Part shown: positions 9,001-12,000 of the stretch, in pieces
Layout: every line of letters starts with the position of its first letter
Numbering within the stretch: the first letter of the stretch is position 1
Source of the DNA: Escherichia coli
Lineage (GTDB): Bacteria; Pseudomonadota; Gammaproteobacteria; Enterobacterales; Enterobacteriaceae
Assembly: GCF_002854065.1 (NCBI RefSeq)
Contig: NZ_CP024147.1
Length of the DNA stretch: 64,000 nt
Strand: one strand, 5' to 3'
Made by a program: the position numbers

Positions 9001-12000
9001 CGCTGTTCGATAAGATCTTCGCGAGGAATGTTAGGAAATGCTATGTTTAGTGCTGAAGTAAGCCGGCTTTCTAGCTCGGCTTCAGTTCGAACGAGTGGAG
9101 AGCCCGTTTTTGATTGCATACTTTTCATGACAAAGTATCCTCAGATATTAGTCATTGGCTAAGTTTTTATTTCACTTACTACCTTTCCAGATTAATGCGA
9201 AGACGCATAGCATTGGATTAACGGATGTGAAATGGATTATTGACAAGCAAAGTAACTTTTTCCGCATAACTATCAATTGATTAGCTGAAGAAAGGGAATA
9301 TGATTTAGTTCACTCAGGTTTCTCCAGCACGATGTGCAGATGCTAAAGCCACGATTAATTCTAAAGCAGATTAATATAACCCTGAAACAGGCAGAGCAGG
9401 AAACGCCTGTATCGGAAGTATGCCGCATGACCGCCCCCGATAACTCACACCGAATGCCAATAGGAATGTCAGCCCCTCGCTCATAGCAGACCTTCGGGCC
9501 TGGCAGCTTAGTGCCAAGAACACTCCCCAGTGGCCTATCGGCAAGTGTAAGCGTACGAATATCGCCTCCGTGCTACACAGTAGACGACTACATTTTCGAC
9601 GCATGAGCAAATCGTGGCTTTAGTTGTCTAAAACCAGTGCTTCAACACTTTTTTTTCACCAAACAACGCATCGTAGAAGCACTAGTTGGATTCCACAGGC
9701 TTACGTAAACAAATAGCGCTAACGGCTAAGCTGGTCCATTAGACGCTCAATCATCCTCGCAAGAGGTATAGTTACTCGATGCCCAGAACAAATGACATTA
9801 ACAAATCTAGCTTTATTTTCATGTCTGCAGTTGCCGAAGCCGCATTAACCTGCGGCAAGGCAAGCCATCTGTTTACGGCATCGGAGTTGAATCTCTGCTG
9901 CCTTAGGAACGAAGATACCGACGTTTCCCAGGAAAAGATTTCACCCCCACAAAGTTCGACGGGCTGCTGAGAGCAGGCTCGCTGAATAGTCATTCCCAAA
10001 CCGACGTAGCGGAGAAGCTCACGTCGCACATTCTCATCTTTTTGCATGACTGGTGCATCCAGTTTCGGTTTCGGTCCAAAGTACACTCCGGTAGTACCTG
10101 GTTGTAATGTCGGGTCACTGGAAAAATAAACCGGAACTCCCATCAATTTAAATGCCGCTGTCAAAATTTCATAACTAATGTCTGATCGACTCCAACGGCC
10201 CATGTGGGGTGGTACTTTTGGCAAACCGACCAGATCATCGCCACGGCTTACAATCGATACCCCCTCAACTGGCACGGATGGTTGCATTCTGAATACAGCG
10301 TCAGAATCGATTTCCCAGCCAGCTTCGCTTAACAATCGCAAAAAATTACCAGCAGCCACGCACGATGATTCACTCCACTCAACACAACCGATGCGCAGCT
10401 TGTCCCGCTGACCGAACTGTCCTGTTCGAAATAATTCGAGGTATCTGTCGCGATTGGAACTATTAACGGCATATGCATCAATCACAGTAGGCGGTACAGG
10501 TTTACTTGCAGATTCAGGATTTTGTTGAAGCAAATCTGGGCTTATGAAAAACACTATAGCGAAGATCGCCACTGCGCCAGATGCTCTTAACCACCCATTA
10601 AATTTTACTTCAAGGAAACCAGGCAGAACTGCACCAATACATCCGGCAGCCAGAGCCAGAACTATTCGGTAAACTATATATTGATAAGGTGTGGGATTGG
10701 GGGTTGTGATAGTAGTAATGAGTATGGCAACTATCGCCACAACCGCAAAACCATACCTAATGAACTTGTCTGTCCTTACACTGCTCATTTTAATTTTGAC
10801 ACCTGAATCAAGTCCATAAGTCGAAAATCCCGCATTAAACTGTTCCCCAATGATTAATACAGCTTTATACGCGTAATGAGGCTATTGGCGTTGGTGATGA
10901 GTGTAACTGTCCATTCCTCGCTCAGAGCAACCTTCTGCTCCAAGAGTCAGTCTACAGTGTGCAAAAAACAGACGTTGATCACAATATCGAGTTAATCATT
11001 CGGCCGTTTATCACTCCCATTGAAAAATTTCTCAGTATCCAATATACCAATGTTGAGGGCTTCCCTCTTACATCTCAAAAGGATAACTATCATGGGTCTT
11101 AAACCTGGTCCAAAACCAATTGCTAAATCGACAGGAAAACCAGATCAACGCCGACGAGATAATAAAGATACTCCTGGCAACACTCCGGGACTAAAGCCAA
11201 GTAAGTCCACCGGGAAGTAAAAAAATCAGGGTATAAATAAGTTATTTATACCCTGACTACATATCCAGTCTACTGAAGGTGTTTCTGCAGCCAGGTGCAC
11301 GTTCCTTCTATATCATACGCCTGTGCCCCATACCCTTTAGCAAGCAAAGTCTCTGGTAAATACTCGTCATATTTATCCAGATACTTGTCAGGAACAACTG
11401 CAGCAAGCTCAAACTCTGAAGGTAACCCCGACAATAGCATTTTCTTAAGTACACGCTGGACAGAGGCAACGCCTGAGTCCTCTACCTCTATCACACCTGC
11501 AAATGAACTGGCTTTAAAGCCACAACGTATAAGCAGGGACGTAATTGTATTGACAATTTTATCCCCCATCCACGGGATCACGTAGCAGTTCTGACCACTG
11601 GCAATAAAACAGTCATTGTGTAGATTGTAGCGTTGGAAGTTGTCACTTCCTTCCGCAAAGAGGCTTCTGGCTGCGGCATCAGCATAATCGACTCTCTTGT
11701 TGCCTACCGCGATACGGTAATCATTTTCCCTGTAGATAGCGAGCATCTCCTGGCGAACAACATCATGAACAGACATCCCGCTACCACTGAATAGTGGTGG
11801 CTGACCGCCTTTAGTCGCCTCAACATAGATAACCTTTTTTTCAACCTCGATCTCTGTCACTTTCCAGCGCCGTCCGCCGAAGATGATGTGCTGCTCCGGC
11901 AAAAGTGGGGAGTCTACAGGCACTGTGCCAAGAGTTCGGTTTCCCGTTACAATGCGAAACTCCTCAGGTGTATTGAATACGGCATAAAACGTGTAGTGAT

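What the first reader, a model, noticed from the sequence alone, without database searches (positions are those of the whole stretch)
11092..11220. Small lysine/proline-rich ORF convergent with the helicase gene
A 42-codon ORF (MGLKPGPKPIAKSTGKPDQRRRDNKDTPGNTPGLKPSKSTGK) has a plausible Shine-Dalgarno (AAGGA about 9 nt upstream) and ends at the operon terminator. It is basic, low-complexity and shorter than the ORF-track cutoff. It could be a real small protein or a chance ORF.
Basis: seen in the sequence. Interest (0 to 1): 0.2.

Follow-up and report, generated by a model that had tools for sequence, protein, structure and literature searches.

The report
Conserved 42-residue mobile-element small protein gene
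The 42-codon ORF is a real gene under strong purifying selection for a tiny, basic, unstructured protein of unknown function, found on plasmids, integron cassettes and defence islands across Proteobacteria and left unannotated in the near-identical RefSeq genome.

Summary
The ORF is at 11092-11220 as described, with AAGGA 8 nt before the ATG and a stop 5 nt before the hairpin that ends the helicase gene. An ORF like this is unremarkable on its own, because the window holds 206 ATG frames of 40-60 codons. Conservation shows it is a gene.

- **Spread:** 490 of 100,044 species-representative genomes encode the peptide (Alpha-, Beta- and Gammaproteobacteria, Leptospira). So do 1,424 of 72,556 plasmids, but only 1 of 50,697 phage records.
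- **Selection:** entropy by codon position is 0.18, 0.13 and 1.26 bits. pN/pS is 0.08 in this frame only.
- **Unit boundaries:** between distant loci, homology is confined to the Shine-Dalgarno site plus the ORF. Sequence upstream of the Met is unrelated, so RefSeq's 107-aa model in other E. coli is probably an over-extension.
- **Signals:** the gene has its own promoter-like site, 5' hairpin and terminator.
- **Shango link:** the convergent operon is Shango (SngABC). Only 10 of 77 loci have it, and the ORF persists where Shango is deleted.
- **Neighbours:** elsewhere they are varied defence and toxin-antitoxin genes.
- **Family:** no Pfam, NCBIfam, PADLOC, PHROGs, PDB or literature match, and AlphaFold2 predicts no fold.

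Function is unknown. My inference is that it binds a conserved polyanionic host target.

The parts
10959..10988 (+). Left-end motif of the small-gene unit (GTGCAAAAAACAGACGTTGATCACAATATC). It sits about 134 nt before the ATG in all Enterobacterales copies and recurs as a direct repeat about 197 nt after the ATG in some relatives.
   Evidence: Homology between the window and other E. coli islands begins at about 10958. The motif is at -133/-134 in 16 of the loci (the window, two further E. coli strains, a Klebsiella plasmid and 12 species-representative loci), with a second copy at +197 in L017 and L019-L021. Its role as a recombination or att-like site is inferred.
11020..11048 (+). Promoter-like site: -35 TTGAAA (11020-11025), a 17-nt spacer, then -10 TATACC (11043-11048). 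The predicted transcription start is about 11055.
   Evidence: Read from the sequence. TTG[ACT]NA occurs at -72 to -69 from the ATG in 38 of 80 distinct upstream regions, against 11% of random 46-nt windows. The consensus scanner did not call it because the -10 lacks the final T. Not shown experimentally.
11055..11067 (+). 5' hairpin GAGGG-CTT-CCCTC at the predicted 5' end of the mRNA, upstream of a free Shine-Dalgarno site.
   Evidence: It is present in the fold of the predicted transcript. At the equivalent position in 38 gamma-type sequences, 92.7% of cells are paired, 3 of 4 pairs show compensatory changes, and slid controls give 54-85%. Support for selection on structure is modest.
11079..11083 (+). 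Shine-Dalgarno AAGGA, 8 nt before the ATG.
   Evidence: an AAGGA or AGGAG-type SD lies 6-9 nt before an ATG in almost all of the 77 loci.
11092..11220 (+). Coding sequence of the 42-aa protein MGLKPGPKPIAKSTGKPDQRRRDNKDTPGNTPGLKPSKSTGK.
11226..11256 (.). Perfect 15+15-nt hairpin that ends both the small gene and the convergent sngC. It is a textbook terminator (T-run) only on the minus strand.
   Evidence: The same AGGGTATA...TATACCCT hairpin follows the small ORF in relatives that lack Shango (L009, L011, L017-L022), so it travels with the small gene.
11270..13468 (-). Neighbouring gene, not part of the unit: sngC, the DEAD/DEAH helicase of the Shango system. sngB is at 13465-14781 and sngA at 14785-17094, both on the minus strand.
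   Evidence: PADLOC gives SngC 7e-277, SngB 1e-187 and SngA 6.5e-103.

Best explanation
The ORF is a genuine, free-standing gene of about 240 bp (promoter-like site, 5' hairpin, SD, 42 codons, hairpin terminator). It encodes a 4.4-kDa, strongly basic, Pro/Gly/Lys-rich protein with no predicted fold. It belongs to an uncharacterised small-protein family that travels on plasmids, genomic islands and integron cassettes of Proteobacteria. The family typically sits beside varied anti-phage defence or toxin-antitoxin genes. In this window the unit abuts the 3' end of the Shango operon and shares its terminator, but it is not a Shango component.

Shown here: coding status, purifying selection, the start site, the unit's boundaries, its distribution and its neighbourhood.

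Inferred: nearly every residue of an unfoldable polycation is conserved across bacterial classes while synonymous sites are saturated. From that I infer the peptide works by binding, in extended form, a universally conserved polyanionic host component. Ribosome/RNA or DNA are the likeliest targets. I further infer that this serves the mobile element or the defence island as a modulator, not an enzyme. I put about 0.9 on 'real translated gene, independent of Shango' and about 0.4 on the binding mechanism.
For: - **Coding signal.**
  - 77 loci from different genera keep the ATG, the frame and an SD.
  - Entropy by codon position is 0.18, 0.13 and 1.26 bits. pS is 0.71, pN 0.057, and pN/pS 0.08 in this frame. 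The other frames give above 1.8, apart from 0.21 in the antisense frame that shares the third positions.
  - Against Serratia L010 there are 18 nt differences and no amino-acid change, while SngC next door is 88% identical.
- **Start site.**
  - Gene calls from Vibrio, Pseudomonas, Xanthomonas and others share only the part from the Met onward; their N-terminal extensions are unrelated.
  - 33 of 77 loci have an in-frame stop within 11 codons upstream.
- **Breadth.**
  - The peptide is encoded in 490 of 100,044 species genomes, 1,424 plasmids and 1 phage record.
  - The exact 42-aa sequence is on 1,000 or more contigs as 'hypothetical protein'.
  - Relatives also occur in Neisseria, Arcobacteraceae and Pasteurellaceae.
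- **Independent unit.**
  - Distant loci share only -15 to +117/129.
  - Citrobacter L022 shares only -133 to +212 with Kosakonia L017.
  - In V. vulnificus the ORF sits alone between two attC-type repeats as a cassette of about 489 bp.
- **Not Shango-dependent.**
  - SngC is adjacent in only 10 of 77 loci.
  - 869 E. coli genomes have the unit, but only 456 keep the 3' half of sngC.
  - The ORF is intact in L003, where Shango is deleted.
  - PA14 Shango was cloned and shown to protect as a three-gene system (PMC10250203).
- **Neighbourhood.**
  - Immediate neighbours include Gabija, CBASS SAVED effectors, Dsr1, AriA, LmuB, type IIG RM, Mokosh, DarG, HerA and PD-Lambda-1.
  - RelE/ParE-DUF6290 lies divergently on 5.6- and 7-kb plasmids.
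- **Protein properties.**
  - Net charge is +8 and no hydrophobic stretch exists.
  - AlphaFold2 gives pTM 0.18 with a single helical turn.
Against: - No expression data were available, so transcription and translation are inferred from conserved signals.
- The -10 hexamer is weak, and the promoter scan did not call the site.
- The 80 loci studied are the best tblastn matches of 490, which lowers pN. It cannot create the third-position pattern.
- Some E. coli copies are decayed: one is frameshifted in O104:H4, and one is cut after codon 39 by IS66 in O103. The gene is therefore dispensable in some backgrounds.
- The binding-target idea rests only on composition and conservation. No partner gene, domain or structure supports it.
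Confidence: 0.85

Rival explanations
1. The ORF is an unrecognised fourth component or regulator of the Shango system, for example an inhibitor or trigger-sensing partner. On this view it is kept next to sngC because the two work together.
For: The ORF lies 49-65 nt from the sngC stop, sharing the terminator, in 8 of the 10 Shango-linked loci from different Enterobacterales genera. The linkage has survived 10-15% protein divergence of SngC. The same pairing is present on the Klebsiella and Salmonella plasmids examined. In total, 694 plasmids carry the identical peptide.
Against: 67 of 77 loci have no Shango within 7 kb. The ORF and its hairpin occur beside unrelated genes. In E. coli the ORF persists where Shango is reduced to a 90-175-nt stump. 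Shango from P. aeruginosa PA14 protects as three genes (PMC10250203). Pantoea allii L024 joins a different upstream flank to Shango across the ORF unit, which looks like module shuffling rather than co-inheritance.
Confidence: 0.08
2. The ORF is only the 3' remnant of a longer 107-aa gene, as RefSeq annotates in other E. coli (WP_001564033.1). On this view the window copy is a pseudogene fragment, broken by a 5' replacement and a 1-bp indel.
For: In L002 and L003 an open frame of 107 codons runs into the 42 codons. Relative to them, the window has a breakpoint at about 10958 and a 1-bp insertion near 11078.
Against: The 65 upstream codons are not conserved outside close E. coli relatives, and other taxa have unrelated sequence there. 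33 of 77 loci have in-frame stops just upstream. The internal Met and its SD are conserved everywhere. Between the window and L002 the upstream part carries many amino-acid replacements, while by my count from the alignment the 42 codons carry about 10 substitutions, all synonymous. The upstream stretch carries the promoter-like site and the hairpin instead.
Confidence: 0.03
3. The conservation reflects a nucleic-acid element on either strand, such as a small RNA, a recombination site or an antisense gene. On this view the ORF is incidental.
For: The unit has sRNA-like anatomy: about 200 nt, a 5' hairpin and a terminator. Att-like direct repeats bracket it in some lineages. GC-rich relatives have a long antisense ORF.
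Against: Variation has strict 3-nt periodicity in the ORF frame, and synonymous sites are saturated. A base-pairing or protein-binding DNA/RNA element would not produce that. No Rfam family matches at E<=1. The antisense frame's low pN/pS (0.21) is the expected mirror of shared third positions. A dual-function RNA is not excluded.
Confidence: 0.03
4. It is the toxin of a type I toxin-antitoxin-like addiction module, or another self-stabilising selfish gene. That would explain its presence on plasmids, in a reverse-oriented integron cassette and next to TA loci.
For: It is a small monocistronic gene with a conserved 5' hairpin whose arms resemble an SD and an anti-SD. In V. vulnificus it forms a single-gene cassette oriented against the array. 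It neighbours RelE/ParE, RES-Xre and PemK loci.
Against: The peptide is extremely hydrophilic (maximum Kyte-Doolittle over 9 residues is -0.32; GRAVY -1.64), unlike membrane-active type I toxins. No conserved antisense or adjacent RNA was found. The SD is not sequestered in the predicted fold.
Confidence: 0.07
5. It is a chance ORF with no function.
For: The window contains 206 similar-length ATG frames, and PGAP did not annotate this one in the near-identical genome.
Against: All the comparative evidence counts against it.
Confidence: 0.01

Closest known systems
Shango anti-phage system (SngA TerB-N protein, SngB ATPase, SngC helicase; Millman et al. 2022 preprint 10.1101/2022.05.11.491447; Johnson et al. 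2023, PMC10250203)
   Same: It is the physical neighbour. The ORF is convergent with sngC and shares its terminator here, in 9 other Enterobacterales species, and on the Klebsiella and Salmonella plasmids examined.
   Different: The small gene is not in the system's definition. It occurs without Shango in 67 of 77 loci and outlives Shango deletions in E. coli.
Small basic ribosome-associated proteins such as E. coli Sra (RpsV, 45 aa), and the extended tails of ribosomal proteins (from my own knowledge)
   Same: Size, strong positive charge, lack of a fold, and conservation along the whole length. These are the features behind my 'binds a conserved polyanion' inference.
   Different: There is no sequence similarity to any Pfam, NCBIfam or PDB entry. 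The gene is accessory and mobile, not a core gene. Ribosome binding is untested.
Type I toxin genes (hok, ldr, tisB, aapA type; from my own knowledge)
   Same: They are tiny monocistronic genes with a structured 5' leader, common on plasmids and in chromosomal integron arrays.
   Different: Those toxins are hydrophobic membrane peptides paired with an antisense RNA. This peptide is hydrophilic and no antitoxin RNA was found.
SPKK / AT-hook-type minor-groove DNA-binding peptides of histone H1 tails and HMGA (from my own knowledge)
   Same: It has a Lys/Pro-rich composition with (S/T)-P-x-x turns (TPGN, TPGL) and a KPGPKP stretch.
   Different: It lacks the GRP core of an AT-hook. Such tails tolerate much sequence drift, whereas this peptide is nearly invariant.
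Promoter-bearing integron gene cassettes of Vibrio chromosomal integrons (from my own knowledge)
   Same: The V. vulnificus homologue is a cassette of about 489 bp between attC-type repeats and is oriented opposite to its neighbours.
   Different: The window copy is not in an integron. In Enterobacterales and Rhizobiales the unit is bounded by other direct repeats of about 20-30 bp.

Membership tests
Bona fide protein-coding gene | The start codon and ribosome-binding site are conserved in homologues. | tested here: met
   ATG in all 77 loci, with an AAGGA or AGGAG-type SD 6-9 nt upstream in nearly all.
Bona fide protein-coding gene | The reading frame is conserved, with an excess of synonymous change. 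| tested here: met
   Codon-position entropy is 0.18, 0.13 and 1.26 bits, and pN/pS is 0.08 in this frame only. The ORF shows 0-3 amino-acid changes against 11-20 nt changes between genera.
Bona fide protein-coding gene | Direct evidence of transcription and translation. | not testable with these tools
   No expression data are held, and no paper mentions the peptide or its accessions.
Shango defence system (as a component) | SngA (TerB-N), SngB (ATPase) and SngC (helicase) are present in one operon. | tested here: met
   PADLOC gives SngC 7e-277, SngB 1.3e-187 and SngA 6.5e-103 for the three convergent genes. This concerns the neighbours, not the ORF.
Shango defence system (as a component) | The candidate gene co-occurs with the system across lineages. 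| tested here: not met
   10 of 77 loci. The unit is in 869 E. coli genomes against 456 with an intact sngC 3' half. The 42-aa peptide has no PADLOC model.
Type I toxin-antitoxin toxin | The peptide is hydrophobic and membrane-spanning. | tested here: not met
   GRAVY is -1.64 and the maximum 9-residue Kyte-Doolittle value is -0.32.
Type I toxin-antitoxin toxin | There is a cis-antisense or adjacent antitoxin RNA. | tested here: inconclusive
   No Rfam match overlaps the unit. A new RNA cannot be excluded without transcript data.
Leader peptide / upstream regulatory ORF | A regulated gene follows on the same strand within the same transcript. | tested here: not met
   The ORF is followed by a hairpin and a convergent gene here. 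Downstream neighbours vary, and 44 of 71 are on the opposite strand.
Integron gene cassette | A single gene is bounded by attC recombination sites within a cassette array. | tested here: not met
   This is met for the V. vulnificus relative L006, where repeats at 6280-6410 and 6776-6899 flank the ORF at 6571-6699. It is not met in the window, which has no such repeats.
Any curated protein family (Pfam-A, NCBIfam, PADLOC, PHROGs) or solved structure | A significant profile match. | tested here: not met
   No hit at E<=1 in Pfam or NCBIfam. No PADLOC hit at E<=0.001. The best PHROGs hit is E=0.1. The PDB profile search gives nothing at E<=10. A profile search of 1.84 billion representatives finds only 267 short proteins of the same family and no larger domain family.
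AT-hook DNA-binding motif | A Gly-Arg-Pro core flanked by basic residues. | tested here: not met
   The sequence has no GRP, only KPGPKP and TPGN/TPGL turns.

The most novel reading that the evidence does not exclude
The roughly 350-bp unit (promoter, 42 codons, terminator) is a self-contained mobile mini-cassette. It is captured by attC sites in Vibrio and bracketed by lineage-specific att-like direct repeats in Enterobacterales and Rhizobiales. Its product is a new class of mobile-element or defence-island factor: an extended polycationic peptide that acts on a universally conserved host machine, for example the ribosome, to modulate defence, maintenance or establishment of the element. Its conserved sequence may also serve as a recombination anchor for swapping the adjacent defence cargo.
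Probability: 0.2. Interest if true: 0.75.

Novelty: new member of a known kind. Interest (0 to 1): 0.5.

Why it matters
Small proteins are systematically missed. This one is unannotated in the RefSeq genome that is 99.4% identical to the window over its first 19 kb (identical across the ORF), and it is probably mis-modelled as a 107-aa protein in hundreds of other E. coli. It is still among the more conserved accessory genes one could name: at least 86% identity over 42 residues from E. coli to Rhizobium, Janthinobacterium and Leptospira, with saturated synonymous sites. It sits on about 2% of sequenced plasmids, including common Klebsiella IncF plasmids, and directly beside many different anti-phage systems. 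That makes it a cheap, well-defined candidate for a new function linked to mobile elements or to defence. It is also a caution for people cloning defence systems such as Shango with their native flanks, because the fragment may carry this gene.

Tried and rejected
- **RNA families:** Rfam at E<=1 around the ORF, and at gathering score on five relatives, gave nothing overlapping the unit.
- **Protein families and structures:** Pfam, NCBIfam, PADLOC, PHROGs and a PDB profile search found no family.
- **Fold prediction:** AlphaFold2 with a 20-sequence alignment gave pLDDT 68 and pTM 0.18 with one helical turn, so I ran no fold search.
- **Larger homologues:** an HMM search of 1.84 billion representatives for proteins containing the motif found only short family members with spurious extensions, plus one tandem fusion of two copies.
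- **Literature:** searches for peptide strings and accessions gave 0 papers. A general search on small proteins and defence islands found nothing specific.
- **Cluster artefact:** two roughly 600-aa S1 ribosomal proteins in one 90% cluster raised the idea of a fusion. Their sequences are unrelated, so this is a clustering artefact.
- **Conserved protein partner:** clustering all ORFs within +-7 kb, and the divergent small ORFs, gave only lineage-specific neighbours. These were Shango in Enterobacterales, a 61-82-aa divergent protein in the Vibrio group and RelE/ParE-DUF6290 in three loci.
- **Repeated cassette-boundary motif:** the 30-nt left-end motif occurs only at -134 and, in some loci, at +197. 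It does not occur elsewhere within +-10 kb.
- **Consensus RNA structure:** RNAalifold on the 5' leader predicted no pairs because the hairpins are out of register in the MAFFT alignment. I counted the pairs on a stated structure instead.
- **Generic hairpin detector:** it was uninformative, with a control rate of 0.52.
- **dif/Xer comparison:** by eye, the left-end motif is not convincingly similar to E. coli dif. This rests on my own knowledge and is not a tool result.
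Full report
**Observation.** ATG is at 11092 and TAA at 11218-11220, and the product is MGLKPGPKPIAKSTGKPDQRRRDNKDTPGNTPGLKPSKSTGK. 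AAGGA lies at 11079-11083, 8 nt before the ATG. The stop is 5 nt before a perfect 15+15-nt inverted repeat at 11226-11256. On the minus strand that repeat is followed by a T-run and terminates the convergent helicase gene 11270-13468. The peptide has net charge +8, pI 10.8 and GRAVY -1.64, with no Cys, no aromatic residues and no hydrophobic stretch. An ORF like this is not remarkable by itself: the window has 206 ATG-opened frames of 40-60 codons, 9 of them with an SD-like 4-mer. Whether it is a gene therefore depends on comparative evidence.

**Context.** The first 19 kb of the window is 99.4% identical to E. coli AMSCJX02 downstream of yfdC and tRNA-Arg, followed by an integrase. This is an integrative island. 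The three convergent genes are the Shango anti-phage system, with PADLOC scores of 7e-277 for SngC, 1e-187 for SngB and 6.5e-103 for SngA. Shango has been described as a three-gene TerB/ATPase/helicase system (preprint 10.1101/2022.05.11.491447; PMC10250203). PGAP annotates nothing over the ORF in that genome.

**A longer gene model in other E. coli.** In islands about 92% identical, RefSeq annotates a 107-aa hypothetical protein (WP_001564033.1, WP_015953064.1) whose last 42 residues are this ORF. Relative to those islands, the window has a homology breakpoint at about 10958 and a 1-bp insertion near 11078 that separates the two frames. That raised the possibility that the ORF is a gene fragment. 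By my count from the alignment, the 42 codons carry about ten substitutions between the window and L002, all synonymous. The upstream part carries many amino-acid replacements.

**The conserved unit is the 42 codons.** A protein search returned 150 hits at E<=0.01 from Vibrio, Pseudomonas, Xanthomonas, Klebsiella, Raoultella and others. These gene calls share only the stretch from the Met onward, and their N-terminal extensions are unrelated to each other. A scan of one genome per species found the peptide in 490 of 100,044 species. The best 80 loci include Enterobacterales, Vibrionaceae, Aeromonas, Shewanella, Rhizobiales, Sphingomonadales, Rhodobacterales, Burkholderiales and a Leptospira, all at 86-100% amino-acid identity. 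Across the 77 loci I could parse:
- All begin with ATG, and nearly all have an AAGGA or AGGAG-type SD 6-9 nt upstream.
- 33 have an in-frame stop within 11 codons upstream.
- Mean entropy by codon position is 0.18, 0.13 and 1.26 bits.
- pS is 0.71 (saturated) and pN is 0.057, giving pN/pS of 0.08 in the ORF frame.
- Four other frames give above 1.8, and the antisense frame that shares third positions gives 0.21.

These loci are the top matches, which biases pN downward. That bias cannot create the periodicity. As an internal control, in the Shango-linked loci of other genera SngC is 85-90% identical in protein. The small ORF there differs at 11-20 of 129 nt but at only 0-3 residues. The 107-aa RefSeq model is most likely an over-extension.

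**Anatomy of the unit.**
- Between distant loci, nucleotide homology is confined to -15 to +117/129 relative to the ATG.
- In gamma-type loci a TTGAAA/TTGATA hexamer sits at -72 to -69 in 38 of 80 distinct upstream regions, against 11% of random windows. It is followed by 17 nt and a weak -10.
- In the window these are TTGAAA at 11020-11025 and TATACC at 11043-11048, which predicts a start near 11055.
- At that point lies a small hairpin, GAGGG-CTT-CCCTC (11055-11067). At the same position in 38 sequences, 92.7% of cells are paired, 3 of 4 pairs show compensatory changes, and slid controls give 54-85%. This is only modest evidence that the structure itself is under selection.
- The SD is unpaired in the predicted fold of the 208-nt transcript.
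- A terminator-type hairpin follows the ORF in most loci.
- The AGGGTATA...TATACCCT hairpin of the window also follows the ORF in relatives without Shango (L009, L011, L017-L022). It therefore belongs to the small gene, and sngC borrows it.
- The promoter scanner did not call the site, and no expression data exist, so transcription is inferred.

**Relationship to Shango.** SngC lies convergently downstream in 10 of 77 loci, all Enterobacterales: within 49-65 nt in eight of them and at 146-174 nt in L023 and L024. The same pairing was seen on the Klebsiella and Salmonella plasmids examined. The other 67 loci have no Shango. In E. coli the unit is in 869 of 5,426 genomes, while the 3' half of sngC is intact in only 456 and partial in 344. 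In strain Z0117EC0054 Shango is reduced to a 93-nt stump and the ORF is intact. Pantoea allii joins the upstream flank typical of Kosakonia-type loci to Shango across the ORF unit. PA14 Shango protects as three cloned genes. I conclude that the linkage is physical, not functional, and leave about 8% for an accessory role.

**Where else it lives.** tblastn finds the peptide in 1,424 of 72,556 plasmids (1,009 of them Klebsiella; 842 conjugative) but in only 1 of 50,697 phage records.
- On the 5.6-kb pCKO2 and a 7-kb Proteus plasmid it lies divergently from a RelE/ParE-DUF6290 pair.
- In Pseudomonas it lies about 0.9 kb from a RES-Xre pair.
- In several Vibrionaceae it lies 2.4-4.7 kb from guaA-guaB-xseA.
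- In V. vulnificus it sits alone between two roughly 125-nt attC-type repeats. That makes a cassette of about 489 bp in an array, oriented opposite to the other cassette genes.
- The nearest larger neighbours elsewhere are strikingly often defence proteins. Downstream they include Gabija GajA/GajB, SAVED nucleases, Dsr1, AriA, LmuB, a type IIG enzyme and an ApeA-like HEPN protein. Upstream they include PD-Lambda-1, HerA, DarG, Mokosh MkoA/MkoC, MADS proteins and a type IV restriction enzyme.
- Counting from the family tables, and including Shango, roughly a quarter to a third of immediate neighbours are defence-related. This count is approximate.

**Unit boundaries.** Among Kosakonia-type loci, homology runs through the ORF and stops sharply at +200 to +224, after which the cargo differs. 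Citrobacter L022 shares only -133 to +212 with them. In that group the unit is bracketed by 30-nt direct repeats, GTGCCAAAAGCTGACATTGCTCACATAATA at -134 and a copy with 4 mismatches at +197. The left copy is present in the window at 10959-10988, exactly at the breakpoint with other E. coli islands. In Rhizobiales the ORF lies in a block of about 800 bp that is 85-93% conserved in different contexts. That block is bounded by a different direct repeat of about 20 nt. No recombinase was identified, so I record this as unexplained. It does suggest cassette-like mobility by more than one route.

**What the protein might do.** No curated family, defence model, phage family or solved structure matches it. 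A profile search of 1.84 billion representative proteins finds only 267 short proteins of the same family and no larger protein that contains the motif. AlphaFold2 predicts no fold (pTM 0.18). The exact sequence is in public databases only as 'hypothetical protein', and no paper in the library contains the peptide or its accessions. The family motif is M-[GAS]-[LI]-K-P-G-P-K-x-I-A-x-S-T-G-K-x-D-x-R-x-R-D-N-K-x-T-P-G-N, followed by a basic tail. A divergent paralogue occurs on Klebsiella IncFIB plasmids. An unfoldable polycation whose residues are almost all fixed across bacterial classes is best explained by extended binding to a universally conserved polyanionic partner. The ribosome or other RNA is the likeliest target, and DNA is the next most likely. 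Its near absence from phages, and its location on plasmids, cassettes and defence islands, suggest a role for the element or island rather than for a virus. This step is inference, and I give it about 0.4. A type I toxin role is unlikely because the peptide is hydrophilic. A leader-peptide role is excluded by the terminator and the variable, often convergent, downstream genes.

**Verdict.** The gene is an unannotated member of an uncharacterised but widespread small-protein family carried by mobile elements. It is not a Shango component, and its function is unknown. I raise interest from 0.2 to about 0.5. The existence of the family is already implicit in databases, but its conservation, mobility and company make it a good experimental target.

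Noticed in passing
window 6768-9128 (-): The gene for the 'type I restriction enzyme HsdR N-terminal domain-containing protein' is intact (786 aa) in strain AMSCJX02. In the window it has two internal stop codons (codons 100 and 604), so it is probably a pseudogene in this strain.
   Followed up: partly
window 9772-10788 (-): This 338-aa hypothetical protein lies just upstream of the small gene. It has a hydrophobic N-terminal region, no Pfam, NCBIfam or PADLOC match, and a strong match to phage family phrog_23803 of unknown function (E=1.8e-169). It lies between the HsdR-N-like gene and Shango, so it may be defence-related.
   Followed up: partly
L041, L044, L049, L051, L053, L055, L088 (about -513 to +280 around the ORF; e.g. 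L051 9489-10291): In Rhizobiales and relatives the small ORF lies in a block of about 800 bp that is 85-93% conserved in unrelated contexts. The block starts with two copies of CGCCCTCAAATCGGTCGTTCA and ends with one more copy. The ends look like a cassette or att site, and no recombinase lies inside.
   Followed up: partly
L017, L019-L021 (-134 and +197 from the ATG); window 10959-10988: 30-nt direct repeats (GTGCCAAAAGCTGACATTGCTCACATAATA) bracket the roughly 345-bp small-gene unit. The left copy marks the homology breakpoint in E. coli. The recombination mechanism is unknown.
   Followed up: partly
L006 6280-6899 (Vibrio vulnificus): The small gene forms a single cassette of about 489 bp between attC-type repeats of a chromosomal integron-like array. 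It is oriented opposite to the other cassette genes.
   Followed up: partly
L029-L042, L052, L060, L072 (about 45-360 nt upstream of the ORF, opposite strand): Vibrio-group loci share a divergently oriented 61-82-aa ORF (MDRITSGPRRLSVEEIQELRRDMQESSAWAKAELKRRR...). It has no Pfam match, and its start overlaps the small gene's promoter region. It may be a lineage-specific partner.
   Followed up: no
L002 5939-6262 and L003 5939-6262 (E. coli AR_0150, Z0117EC0054): The RefSeq 107-aa hypothetical proteins WP_001564033.1 and WP_015953064.1 appear to be over-extended models of the 42-aa gene. The extra 65 codons cover its promoter-like site and 5' hairpin and are not conserved elsewhere.
   Followed up: yes
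L096 3045-3161 (E. coli O103 RM8385) and L095 3001-3212 (O104:H4): These are decayed copies. An IS66-family element (ISCro1) cuts the ORF after codon 39 and replaces the terminator and Shango. The O104:H4 copy is frameshifted in an IS-ridden region that retains only a 171-nt sngC stump.
   Followed up: partly
L092 6001-6132 (Klebsiella pneumoniae IncFIB plasmid pKPN): This is a divergent paralogue, MGIKPGPKPIAESTGKEDKRRRVTPENKPKHPGLKEHDHKKGE (WP_004218042.1). It lies between an ISNCY transposase and the htpX/psiE/clpK heat-resistance genes. Many Klebsiella plasmids carry two places matching the family.
   Followed up: no
protein P0166 (87 aa, metagenomic): Two tandem copies of the peptide are fused in one reading frame, which implies tandem duplication of the unit in some genome.
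   Followed up: no
L067 10609-10681 (Janthinobacterium) and L029 14397-14470, 19655-19760 (Vibrio salilacus): In L067 a tRNA gene lies about 0.5 kb downstream of the small ORF. In L029, PtaRNA1 and traJ-II RNAs lie near it. Both fit an integrative or conjugative element context.
   Followed up: no
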